Origin: Escherichia phage Ec_O157kw
Strand: one strand, 5' to 3'
Sequence record: PV857777.1
DNA: 64,000 bases
In this document: in pieces, positions 23,875-24,988 of the stretch
Layout of the letters: each line of letters starts with the position of its first letter
How positions within the stretch are numbered: position 1 is the first letter of the stretch
Notes under the pieces: generated by a model
What the model saw: only the letters and a program-made list of their open reading frames with translations
What the model was told of the DNA's origin: nothing
Databases searched by the model: none
Translations under genes and position numbers: made by a program

Positions 23875-24414
23875 ATGAAATTTAATTATAATCCTGAATA
23901 CATACCAAATCCGGTAGCTAAACTGATTGATTTTGATGTTGTAAGCACTTATGTATGCCCTGTTAAACCACTGGAAATTAAGGAACCTACTATGACTACC
24001 GCTATTGAAATCGGCAAAACCTACAAACTGGTTGAAACTGAAATTAAAACTACTGCACTAAATTTGGGTTATAAAGCATTGACTAATGTTTTTGGTGAAG
24101 GCGAGTTTGTGGTTAAAAGCTTTTCAAAAAGTAACTGGTATGATAAGAATAAAGCTTACGTGATTCGAGTACGCCGTTTAGATAATGATGAAGTAATTAA
24201 AACTATAGTTTTTGAAGCAGAGTTCATCCTCTTTCAAGAATGCGATCCTACTGACCTTCTAACTCATGCGGTAGCTATCAAGACTCCATTTATTTCGGTC
24301 TGTGGTTGGGTAACAGACCAATGGATTGAAGATGGTGTTGAACTTCTGAACGTTGTTCATGCAGGTGATTTTAGCGTAGTACCTCGTAGTGCAGTGGTAG
24401 CTATTTTGAATTAA
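23875..24414 (+). CDS. hypothetical protein, paralog A
   Basis: 179 aa; C-terminal block TDQWIEDGVELLNVVHAGDFSVVP. Confidence 0.6.
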   Translation: MKFNYNPEYIPNPVAKLIDFDVVSTYVCPVKPLEIKEPTMTTAIEIGKTYKLVETEIKTTALNLGYKALTNVFGEGEFVVKSFSKSNWYDKNKAYVIRVRRLDNDEVIKTIVFEAEFILFQECDPTDLLTHAVAIKTPFISVCGWVTDQWIEDGVELLNVVHAGDFSVVPRSAVVAILN

Positions 24415-24490
24415 TAGTTTACAAACTCTTGGGACCAGAGTATAATGGTCCTGTGGAGTATAAAATCTTTTTAACAAGTGAGAGATAACT

Positions 24491-24988
24491 ATGATTATTA
24501 ATATTGGTGAAATTGCTCGTGTATCTGATAAATCCCGTTCTAAAGCAGCAGGAAAATTGGTCGAAATTGTAAGCATTCAGCTTAAACACGGCGTTAAAGA
24601 TGAAGATTCTGAAGTAAAAGTGCGTATCATTCCTAAAGATGGAAAGTCTAAACCTCAGTTTGGCTATGTTCGTGCGAAATTTCTTGAATCTGCGTTTTTG
24701 AAAGCTGTTCCTGCTAAAGGAATTGAAACGATTGATACTTCGCATGTAGGTGTAGACTTTAAGTGGAAACTCGGTCAGGCTATTAAGTTCGTTGCTCCTT
24801 ATGAATTCGAATTTACTGAAGATGAGGAAGGGGTTGTTCAAAAACACCGTACTCGTGCTATGTGCGCATACATTACCGATCAGTGGGTAGAAGACGGTGT
24901 TAAGCTGTACAACGCGGTATTTTTAGGAACATACAAAGTCATTCCTGAAAGCTGGATTAAACACTATAGCAAAGCTCGCTGTGCATAA
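24491..24988 (+). CDS. hypothetical protein, paralog B
   Basis: 165 aa; C-terminal block TDQWVEDGVKLYNAVFLGTYKVIP. Confidence 0.6.
   Translation: MIINIGEIARVSDKSRSKAAGKLVEIVSIQLKHGVKDEDSEVKVRIIPKDGKSKPQFGYVRAKFLESAFLKAVPAKGIETIDTSHVGVDFKWKLGQAIKFVAPYEFEFTEDEEGVVQKHRTRAMCAYITDQWVEDGVKLYNAVFLGTYKVIPESWIKHYSKARCA

What the first reader, a model, noticed from the sequence alone, without database searches (positions are those of the whole stretch)
23875..24988. Tandem paralogous pair with a shared C-terminal domain, upstream of topoisomerase gene 39
ORFs 23875-24414 (179 aa) and 24491-24988 (165 aa) end in homologous about 45-aa blocks (TDQW[IV]EDGV.L.N.V..G.[FY].V[VI]P.S). Their N-terminal two thirds differ. 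The second has its own early promoter (24415-24460). This looks like a duplicated effector with a diversified N-terminal part and a conserved anchoring or interaction domain. I do not recognise the fold.
Basis: seen in the sequence. Interest (0 to 1): 0.45.

Follow-up and report, generated by a model that had tools for sequence, protein, structure and literature searches.

The report
Phage T4 motB and motB.1-type pair
The two neighbouring genes are the known T4-type early gene motB and a motB.1-family gene; they do share a conserved C-terminal domain, but this was published in 2021, so the finding is real and ordinary.

Summary
ORF 23875-24414 (179 aa) and ORF 24491-24988 (165 aa) share a 32-37-residue C-terminal block (BLASTP E=6e-11; profile-profile E=3.8e-15). 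No other similarity is detectable. The window is a T4-like Tequatrovirus (99.6% identical to Shigella phage ESh30).

The second ORF is MotB (88% identical to T4 MotB; Pfam PF17613, 329 bits). The first is the RB32ORF010c-type member of the MotB.1 family. That MotB and MotB.1 share a C-terminal domain and differ in the N-terminal domain was published by Son et al. 2021 (PMC7827196). The 2006 RB32 GenBank record also notes it.

What I add:
- The module is acidic or neutral, whereas MotB's KOW-like N-terminal barrel is basic. So the shared barrel is more likely a docking module than the DNA-binding surface (inference).
- The family is built by shuffling modules, including a short motif D.D[IV]..MY that I did not find described.
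- The 119-aa T4 reference MotB.1 is truncated by an extra G that 13 other T4-type records lack.

The motB promoter call is correct. Novelty: already known. Interest is low.

The parts
23875..24414 (+). motB.1-family gene (RB32ORF010c type), 179 aa. It sits directly after motB.2 (stop at 23872) and directly before the motB promoter.
   Evidence: ORF list. RB32 annotation 'C-terminus similar to RB69ORF012c, motB'. phrog_2333 full length, E=2.5e-82. 197 homologues at E<=0.001; the 120 listed are mostly 176-183 aa, so the frame is kept open. Residues 103-178 align with full-length T4-type MotB.1 (P0244) at 61% identity, E=1e-31.
23929..23970 (+). Short motif 'M' (DFDVVSTYVCPVKP, residues 19-32) within the 39-residue N-terminal extension, which T4 motB.1 lacks.
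   Evidence: The extension is conserved as protein without frame breaks in the 19 aligned homologues (75-97% identical). The same motif D.D[IV]..MY...[IV]KP recurs inside other family members, between the N- and C-terminal domains (P0248, P0255, P0258), or at the N-terminus (P0243, P0249, P0041). AF2 predicts residues 1-41 as disordered, pLDDT<50.
23992..23994 (+). Internal ATG (Met40), preceded by AAGGAA six bases upstream. It aligns with the start codon of T4 motB.1 and is a possible alternative start giving 140 aa.
   Evidence: Sequence. DNA alignment with T4. One database entry (P0108) is annotated at 140 aa.
24004..24243 (+). N-terminal domain of the 179-aa protein (residues 44-123): a predicted small barrel with a helix after strand 1, of the GoF/LSm-like type.
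   Evidence: AF2 elements E49-52, H60-73, E77-85, E95-101, E106-111, H114-119, E120-123; pLDDT 70-82. hhalign to the GoF-like paralogue at 26191-26559: 80 columns, probability 74.7%, E=2.6e-5. phrog_2333 cross-hit E=0.0013. No BLAST similarity to the T4 MotB.1 N-terminal domain.
24244..24414 (+). C-terminal barrel of the 179-aa protein (residues 124-179). It starts with the DPTDLL motif; the stop codon is included.
   Evidence: AF2 strands 132-135, 142-152, 155-162, 165-170, a 3-residue helical turn, then 174-176; pLDDT 77-85. pI 4.3, net charge -5.
24292..24402 (+). Shared block, copy 1 (residues 140-176: ISVCGWVTDQWIEDGVELLNVVHAGDFSVVPRSAVVA), equal to strands 2-5 of the C-terminal barrel.
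   Evidence: Residues 143-164 are invariant among 20 family members.
24418..24446 (+). Sigma-70-type (T4 early-type) promoter of motB: TTTACA, 17 nt, TATAAT.
   Evidence: 11 of 12 matches, best in the region. Identical in T4 and RB32. The corresponding site upstream of motB is annotated 'predicted early promoter' in phage fPS-90. A 6-bp inverted repeat GGACCA/TGGTCC (24432-24437 and 24446-24451) overlaps the -10 element.
24491..24988 (+). motB, 165 aa.
   Evidence: 88% identical to T4 MotB, E=9e-108. Pfam PF17613 residues 1-163, E=6.5e-99. phrog_1671 E=2.2e-76.
24491..24691 (+). MotB N-terminal KOW-like barrel (residues 1-67), basic.
24752..24985 (+). MotB C-terminal barrel (residues 88-165), with a long strand 1-strand 2 hairpin that the 179-aa protein lacks.
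   Evidence: AF2 strands 97-112, 115-134, 137-144, 147-152, a helical turn, then 156-159; pLDDT 86-96.
24854..24964 (+). Shared block, copy 2 (residues 122-158: RAMCAYITDQWVEDGVKLYNAVFLGTYKVIPESWIKH).
   Evidence: Invariant I128, D130, W132, E134, G136, K138, L139, Y140, N141, V143, F144, V150, E153 in 46 MotB sequences.

Best explanation
The pair is motB and a motB.1-family gene of a T4-like phage. Both encode small early proteins made of two SH3-like beta-barrels joined by a linker.

Shown:
- The C-terminal barrel (strands 2-5, motif [TS]D.W.E[DE]G..L.N.V..G.[FY].V.P) is the only part the two share, and it is the most conserved part of each family.
- The N-terminal barrel is a swappable head. 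In MotB it is basic and KOW-like. In the 179-aa protein it is near-neutral, of the GoF/LSm-like type, and preceded by a 39-residue extension carrying a short conserved motif.

From the literature: MotB binds double-stranded DNA tightly and non-specifically. It copurifies with H-NS and StpA on DNA and changes the H-NS footprint. It is toxic when expressed alone and doubles the T4 burst size.

Inferred, about 0.45: MotB contacts DNA through the basic N-terminal barrel. The shared acidic-to-neutral C-terminal barrel is a common docking or self-association module. It would bring different nucleic-acid-binding heads to the same partner or place in the infected cell; candidates are the nucleoid/H-NS complex or RNA polymerase.

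Expression: the 179-aa gene is read from upstream transcripts together with motB.2. motB also has its own early promoter.
For: Identity:
- 99.6% DNA identity to Shigella phage ESh30, and gene order as in RB32 and T4.
- MotB is 88% identical to T4 MotB and matches Pfam PF17613 at 329 bits.
- The 179-aa protein matches full-length T4-type MotB.1 over 76 columns, E=1e-31.

Published:
- Shared C-terminal domain with different N-terminal domains, in four categories (PMC7827196).
- DNA binding, toxicity, burst size and H-NS/StpA copurification (PMC6070864; PMC7827196).
- MotB.1 N-terminal domain grouped with GoF and Frd.2 as LSm-like (PMC12152347).

Fold:
- The AF2 models show strand4-3_10 turn-strand5 in three of the four barrels, and a six-residue helix (114-119) at that position in the N-terminal barrel of the 179-aa protein. 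No helix lies between strands 3 and 4 of the C-terminal barrels.

Charge: MotB N-terminal domain pI 9.75; shared block net 0 in MotB and -4 in the 179-aa protein; 179-aa C-terminal domain pI 4.3.

Module behaviour:
- The C-terminal block is always at the C-terminus of proteins of about 100-250 aa (plus one 43-aa deletion variant), in about 27 clusters out of 1.84 billion representatives, combined with different N-terminal modules.
- There is a sharp identity step against T4 at the start of the shared block.

Promoter.
Against: - No experiment assigns DNA binding to either MotB domain. Son et al. 2021 proposed that the C-terminal domain is an OB-fold DNA-binding domain.
- The 179-aa model has only moderate confidence (mean pLDDT 70, from a shallow alignment of 20 sequences that are 75-97% identical).
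- No partner of the shared barrel is known. Conserved acidic residues could be structural.
- T4 delta-motB.1 has no phenotype under laboratory conditions (PMC12152347), so the biological role of the 179-aa protein is open.
Confidence: 0.85

Rival explanations
1. The shared C-terminal domain is itself the nucleic-acid-binding domain, an OB-fold of the cold-shock type as proposed by Son et al. 2021. On this view both proteins are DNA- or RNA-binding proteins that use the same binding module, and the N-terminal parts modulate it.
Confidence: 0.25
2. The shared C-terminal barrel is only a stable folding or dimerisation scaffold with no specific partner. Function would reside entirely in the N-terminal domains, and the two proteins would act independently.
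For: Very high conservation of hydrophobic and glycine positions typical of a barrel core. T4 MotB.1 runs as monomer and dimer on non-reducing gels (PMC12152347).
Against: That dimer was seen with the 119-aa synthetic version, which lacks most of the barrel, and only without reducing agent. AlphaFold3 gave the authors no confident homomultimers. Both faces of strand 2 (alternating W, T, Q, I and G, V, D, W, E) are invariant, which is more than a core needs.
Confidence: 0.2
3. The similarity is a chance or low-complexity match, and the 179-aa ORF is not a real gene.
For: None beyond the short length of the match.
Against: E=6e-11 pairwise and E=3.8e-15 profile-profile. The Pfam hit is above its curated cut-off. 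The 120 listed homologues are mostly 176-183 aa, so the frame is kept open. The block is invariant across the family.
Confidence: 0.01

Closest known systems
T4 MotB (gene motB, NP_049626; Pfam PF17613 'Modifier of transcription')
   Same: The ORF at 24491-24988 is its orthologue: 88% identity over the full length, the same position, and the same upstream promoter sequence.
   Different: Three extra residues in the strand 1-strand 2 hairpin of the C-terminal domain, and a different C-terminal tail (KARCA vs NALYA).
T4 MotB.1 (gene motB.1, NP_049627 / UniProt P39415) and its full-length 144-145-aa relatives (RB27_012, slur11, resequenced T4)
   Same: Same position between motB.2 and motB. Same C-terminal region from about residue 103 on (61% identity, E=1e-31), including DPTDLL and the shared block. 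The T4 start codon aligns with Met40 of the window ORF.
   Different: The N-terminal domain has no detectable sequence similarity, and DNA identity there is 40-50%. The window protein has an extra 39-residue N-terminal extension with motif M. The reference T4 protein is cut after TDQWI by an extra G.
RB32ORF010c (ABI94834.1) and homologues in T6, RB14, UFV13, HY03 and others. Probably 'Category 4' of Son et al. 2021 (inferred).
   Same: Same family and length; the window gene aligns with it base for base. Homologues of it, such as RB14 'RB32ORF010c' and UFV13 g011, are listed in the paper's Table S4.
   Different: Nothing material. The category colour could not be read from the text-only supplement, so 'Category 4' is inferred from the lack of N-terminal similarity to T4 MotB.1.
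GoF / MotB.1 / Frd.2 'LSm-like fold' family of Tevenvirinae (Kim et al. 2025, PMC12152347)
   Same: The N-terminal domain of the 179-aa protein aligns weakly with the GoF-like paralogue at 26191-26559 (80 columns, E=2.6e-5). It has a five-strand barrel prediction.
   Different: No significant match to GoF itself (E=0.12). A 14-residue helix follows strand 1. Membership is plausible but not established.
Tudor / chromo / PWWP / KOW small beta-barrels (SH3-like fold), including tandem Tudor (53BP1) and tandem KOW (Spt5 KOW6-7)
   Different: Sequence identity is 8-23%, with no Pfam KOW or Tudor hit at E<=1. An aromatic cage or ligand was not tested. This is a resemblance of fold, not evidence of homology or of methyl-lysine binding.

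Membership tests
MotB (Pfam PF17613 / phrog_1671) | Full-length match to the family profile above the curated cut-off (ORF 24491-24988) | tested here: met
   328.9 bits against a 25-bit cut-off, residues 1-163 on profile positions 1-160 of 162. phrog_1671 E=2.2e-76. 88% identity to T4 MotB.
MotB (Pfam PF17613 / phrog_1671) | Full-length match for ORF 23875-24414, i.e. the KOW-like N-terminal domain plus the long C-terminal domain | tested here: not met
   Only residues 141-174 match profile positions 120-153. hhalign aligns 37 columns only. The 'MotB-like transcriptional regulator' labels on this ORF in some records reflect the C-terminal block alone.
MotB.1 family (Son et al. 2021, categories 2-4) | C-terminal domain closer to MotB.1 than to MotB | tested here: met
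   76 columns, 61% identity, E=1e-31 to full-length T4-type MotB.1, against 37 columns at 43% to MotB.
MotB.1 family (Son et al. 2021, categories 2-4) | Gene located immediately upstream of motB | tested here: met
MotB.1 family, T4 subtype (category 2) | N-terminal domain similar in sequence to T4 MotB.1 residues 1-82 | tested here: not met
   BLASTP finds no N-terminal alignment. DNA identity is 40-50% there. hhalign starts at residue 103.
GoF/MotB.1/Frd.2 LSm-like N-terminal domain family (Kim et al. 2025) | Bent five-stranded antiparallel sheet in the N-terminal half, with detectable relation to GoF or Frd.2 | tested here: inconclusive
   The AF2 strand order is compatible. hhalign gives probability 74.7%, E=2.6e-5 to the GoF-like ORF at 26191-26559 but E=0.12 to GoF. 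No domain-level superposition was possible.
OB fold, cold-shock DNA-binding type (proposed for the MotB C-terminal domain in 2021) | Five-strand barrel with OB strand order and a helix between strands 3 and 4; OB-fold structural neighbours | tested here: not met
SH3-like small beta-barrel (Tudor/KOW class) | Strand1-RT loop-strand2-strand3-strand4-3_10-strand5 topology, with structural neighbours of that class | tested here: met
Tudor 'reader' domains | Aromatic cage that binds methylated Lys/Arg | not testable with these tools
T4 early gene | Strong sigma-70 consensus promoter directly upstream | tested here: met
   For motB: TTTACA-17-TATAAT at 24418-24446. For the 179-aa ORF no convincing promoter of its own was found: the 10/12 site at 23864-23892 overlaps its start codon, and site counts equal the shuffle expectation.

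The most novel reading that the evidence does not exclude
Three linked readings go beyond the published description:
1. The shared C-terminal barrel is a Tudor/SH3-like docking module, not an OB-fold DNA binder. It would deliver interchangeable nucleic-acid-binding heads (KOW-like, GoF/LSm-like) to one common target in the infected cell, for example RNA polymerase or the H-NS nucleoprotein complex.
2. The short motif D.D[IV]..MY...[IV]KP, which I did not find described, is a further portable interaction element of the same system.
3. The published absence of any MotB.1 activity reflects a truncated protein, because the tested version was synthesised from a reference sequence carrying a one-base insertion.
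Probability: 0.3. Interest if true: 0.45.

Novelty: already known. Interest (0 to 1): 0.15.

Why it matters
As a discovery it matters little. The paralogy, the gene names and the domain split are already in the literature and in GenBank notes.

The useful by-products are practical.

1. MotB.1 work that follows NC_000866.4 uses a 119-aa protein that lacks strands 3-5 of the conserved barrel. Thirteen other T4-type records encode 145 aa. The negative reporter result for MotB.1 (PMC12152347) may therefore need repeating with the full-length protein.

2. The structural reading is two SH3-like barrels, with the basic N-terminal one the likelier DNA binder. This gives a direct domain-dissection experiment for how MotB remodels H-NS-DNA complexes.

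3. The module shuffling shows that the C-terminal barrel is the constant element of a small phage-specific family. That makes it the natural bait for finding the host target.

Tried and rejected
- Sequence search of both proteins against PDB chains found nothing meaningful: best E=0.7 and 0.088.
- Pfam at E<=1 gave no KOW, Tudor, OB or LSm hit for either protein. There were only weak unrelated DUF hits below cut-off.
- hhalign of the 179-aa family against GoF itself gave no signal (E=0.12).
- The terminator scan of 23200-25400 found no intrinsic terminator.
- I looked for a third copy of the shared block in the window by a six-frame profile search and found none.
- I looked for motif M elsewhere in the window and found none.
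- I considered recent gene conversion between the two copies and rejected it, because third-position identity is 25%.
- I considered that the 39-codon N-terminal extension is non-coding, with the true start at Met40. It cannot be excluded as an additional start. The extension is conserved as protein, and its motif occurs internally in other family members, so it is translated at least there.
- The long multi-stretch hits of the C-terminal profile (P0260-P0268, 4-11 stretches, repetitive sequence) were set aside as spurious.
- The category colours in the supplement of PMC7827196 are lost in the text version, so 'Category 4' could not be confirmed directly.

Full report
**What is there**

The window is a T4-like phage genome of the genus Tequatrovirus. 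The stretch 23300-25100 is 99.6% identical to Shigella phage ESh30 and 97-98% identical to many relatives, including RB32 and RB33. On the + strand the gene order is:
- dda (20572-21891), dexA.2, dexA.1, dexA (22625-23308), motB.2 (ATG at 23372, stop at 23872)
- the 179-aa ORF (23875-24414)
- the 165-aa ORF (24491-24988)
- an extra small ORF, then cef, goF, 39.2, a GoF-like ORF, 39.1 and gene 39 (26895-28715)

This order follows.

**Checking the observation**

The two ORFs exist as stated.
- BLASTP aligns residues 141-172 with 123-154: 16/32 identical, E=6e-11.
- Profile-profile comparison of alignments of each family aligns 37 columns (140-176 vs 122-158), probability 98.5%, E=3.8e-15, and nothing else.
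- The Pfam motB model covers the 165-aa protein end to end (328.9 bits). It covers only residues 141-174 of the 179-aa protein (34.1 bits, above the 25-bit cut-off).
- Third codon positions of the shared block are 25% identical. The similarity is therefore maintained at the protein level and is not recent gene conversion.
- A profile of the block finds no third copy in the window.

**Identity**

The 165-aa ORF is MotB. It is 88% identical to T4 MotB.

The 179-aa ORF is the RB32ORF010c type. It occupies the motB.1 slot. From about residue 103 onward it is 61% identical to full-length T4-type MotB.1 (E=1e-31). Its N-terminal domain shows no sequence similarity to that of T4 MotB.1.

Against T4 the DNA is 40-50% identical up to about 24283. 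It is 72-100% identical from there through the promoter into motB. This is a mosaic boundary at the start of the shared block.

**Prior knowledge**

Son et al. [quoted passage not shown] They proposed a duplication and sorted 102 phage homologues into four categories. Homologues of the window's ORF are in their Table S4.

Patterson-West et al. 2018 (PMC6070864) and the 2021 paper showed that MotB:
- binds DNA tightly and non-specifically
- copurifies with H-NS and StpA on DNA, and alters the H-NS footprint
- is toxic when expressed alone
- doubles the burst size

Kim et al. 2025 (PMC12152347) grouped the N-terminal domains of MotB.1, GoF and Frd.2 as LSm-like barrels. They found no phenotype or reporter effect for MotB.1.

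The finding is therefore already known.

**Structure**

*MotB.* AlphaFold2 on a 46-sequence alignment gave mean pLDDT 81, and 86-96 in the C-terminal domain. The model has two five-stranded units:
- strands 8-11, 23-30, 41-46, 56-61, a helical turn, then 65-67
- strands 97-112, 115-134, 137-144, 147-152, a helical turn, then 156-159

*The 179-aa protein.* A 20-sequence alignment gave mean pLDDT 70.
- Residues 1-41 are predicted disordered.
- The N-terminal unit has a helix after strand 1 (49-52, H60-73, 77-85, 95-101, 106-111, H114-119, 120-123).
- The C-terminal unit has strands 132-135, 142-152, 155-162, 165-170, a helical turn, then 174-176.

The strand4-3_10-strand5 signature, and the lack of a helix between strands 3 and 4, fit the SH3-like small barrel and not an OB fold. 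This follows from established fold definitions.

The shared 37 residues are strands 2-5 of the C-terminal barrel. MotB differs by a long strand 1-strand 2 hairpin.

**How it probably works**

The charge distribution is as follows:
- MotB N-terminal barrel: pI 9.75, net +5, with an invariant VS..S(R)S(K)AAG loop (R and K nearly invariant)
- shared block: net 0 in MotB and -4 in the 179-aa protein
- 179-aa protein: C-terminal domain pI 4.3, whole protein pI 5.0

From this I infer two things. MotB's DNA binding resides mainly in the basic KOW-like head. The invariant acidic/aromatic C-terminal barrel is a docking or association module common to both proteins. I put this at about 0.45. The rivals are the C-terminal domain as the nucleic-acid binder (0.25) and as a mere scaffold or dimeriser (0.2).

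Candidate partners are H-NS/StpA-DNA complexes and RNA polymerase. MotB was historically recovered in a complex with DNA, RNA polymerase, MotA and AsiA (PMC6070864). No partner has been tested here.

**Family census**

I searched a 47-position profile of the block against 1.84 billion representative proteins.
- It found 35 hits at E<=0.001. About 27 are credible.
- The block always lies at the C-terminus. The proteins are about 100-250 aa, apart from one 43-aa deletion variant.
- The clusters whose members were looked up lie on contigs of up to 165-195 kb. The named ones are T4-like phages, for example the Klebsiella phages KpV477 and Mineola.
- tblastn finds relatives in 758 phage records, nearly all from phages of Enterobacterales.

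The architectures are combinatorial. K is the KOW-like head, L the GoF/LSm-like head, M the short motif, P the DPTDLL motif and C the shared barrel.
- K + long C: MotB
- K + (M) + P + C: for example P0255, closest to Edwardsiella phage PEi26 'motB'
- L + P + C: T4 MotB.1, full length
- L + M + P + C: P0248
- M + L' + P + C: this window
- M + L' + L'' + P + C: P0243
- a 43-aa deletion product joining the motB.2 start to the last 27 residues of C: P0259

Motif M (D.D[IV]..MY...[IV]KP) corresponds to residues 19-32 of the window ORF. Because it recurs inside other proteins, the 39-codon extension is likely to be genuinely coding. The internal Met40 has a good AAGGAA Shine-Dalgarno sequence and aligns with the T4 start, so it could be a second start.

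**Promoter**

TTTACA-17 nt-TATAAT at 24418-24446 matches 11 of 12 positions. It is identical in T4 and RB32, and the corresponding site upstream of motB is annotated as a predicted early promoter in fPS-90. No intrinsic terminator separates the two genes. motB can therefore be read both from upstream transcripts and from its own promoter (inference).

**Side observation on T4**

The reference T4 sequence (AF158101.6 / NC_000866.4) has GGATTGGAAGATGG where the window, RB32, RB27, slur11 and the independent T4 assembly OZ035787.1 have GGATTGAAGATGG. The extra G ends MotB.1 four codons after TDQWI, giving 119 aa. Without it the protein is 145 aa with the full shared block.

Thirteen other T4-type records match that stretch with a one-base gap. 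They include T4T, RB55, RB59, KJ477684-6, MT984581, OL964735 and OL964745, OZ209023 and OZ209057, and MZ375356. Only the reference and its RefSeq copy have the insertion.

Kim et al. had motB.1 synthesised and cite NC_000866.4 for their T4 sequences. They report a 13.8-kDa protein. Their negative results may therefore concern a truncated protein.

**Verdict**

The object is the already described motB/motB.1-family pair.

Novelty is 'already known' and interest is low. The residual value lies in three points: the fold reassignment from OB to SH3/Tudor-like, the module-shuffling picture with motif M, and the reference-sequence frameshift.

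Noticed in passing
L003 (NC_000866.4) record position about 7305, corresponding to window 24321/24322: The T4 reference motB.1 (119 aa, UniProt P39415) carries an extra G inside the shared block, which truncates the protein after TDQWI. Thirteen other T4-type records, and all relatives examined, lack it and encode a 145-aa protein with the full C-terminal barrel. The MotB.1 constructs of Kim et al. 2025 were synthesised, and the paper cites NC_000866.4 for its T4 sequences.
   Followed up: yes
window 23929-23970 (residues 19-32 of the 179-aa ORF): A short conserved motif D.D[IV]..MY...[IV]KP recurs in different positions (N-terminal, or between domains) in several architectures of the MotB/MotB.1 family. 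AF2 predicts it as disordered. It may be a portable linear interaction motif. I did not find it mentioned in the two papers read.
   Followed up: partly
window 25019-25061: A strong hairpin lies about 30 nt downstream of the motB stop: 13-bp perfect stem ATCAGTAGTTGAT/ATCAACTACTGAT plus an inner stem, dG -23.6 kcal/mol, z=-5.4 against shuffles. No U-run follows, so it is not a classical intrinsic terminator. It may be an RNA processing or stability element, or the edge of the inserted ORF cassette.
   Followed up: partly
window 25074-25355 (probable start ATG 25086, 89 aa): There is an extra small ORF (phrog_3720, unknown function) between motB and cef. It is present in ESh30 but absent from T4 and RB32, which have only an intergenic gap there.
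   Followed up: no
window 24432-24451: A 6-bp inverted repeat GGACCA/TGGTCC, with 8 nt between the arms, overlaps the -10 hexamer of the motB promoter. It is conserved in T4 and RB32. It could be an operator-like or RNA 5'-end structure, or chance.
   Followed up: no
window 26191-26562: A second GoF-family ORF (123 aa, RB32ORF005c type, phrog_622 E=1.4e-28) lies between 39.2 and 39.1. T4 has no gene there. It is the best sequence relative in the window of the N-terminal domain of the 179-aa protein (hhalign E=2.6e-5).
   Followed up: partly
P0259 (43 aa, from the representative-protein library): This is a natural deletion variant. It fuses the first 15-17 residues of MotB.2 (MKIYRVESSFSILDYED) to the last 27 residues of the MotB.1-type C-terminal barrel. 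It is reminiscent of the 29-aa RB69 peptide (Category 3) of Son et al. 2021 and points to recurrent deletions across motB.2-motB.1.
   Followed up: no
Annotations of homologues: Some records label the motB.2 or motB.1-type ORFs 'adenylribosylating enzyme' (W143, SH7, Hafnia phage IsaacDaniel), and T6 labels motB 'baseplate wedge subunit and tail pin'. These are evident annotation-transfer errors.
   Followed up: no
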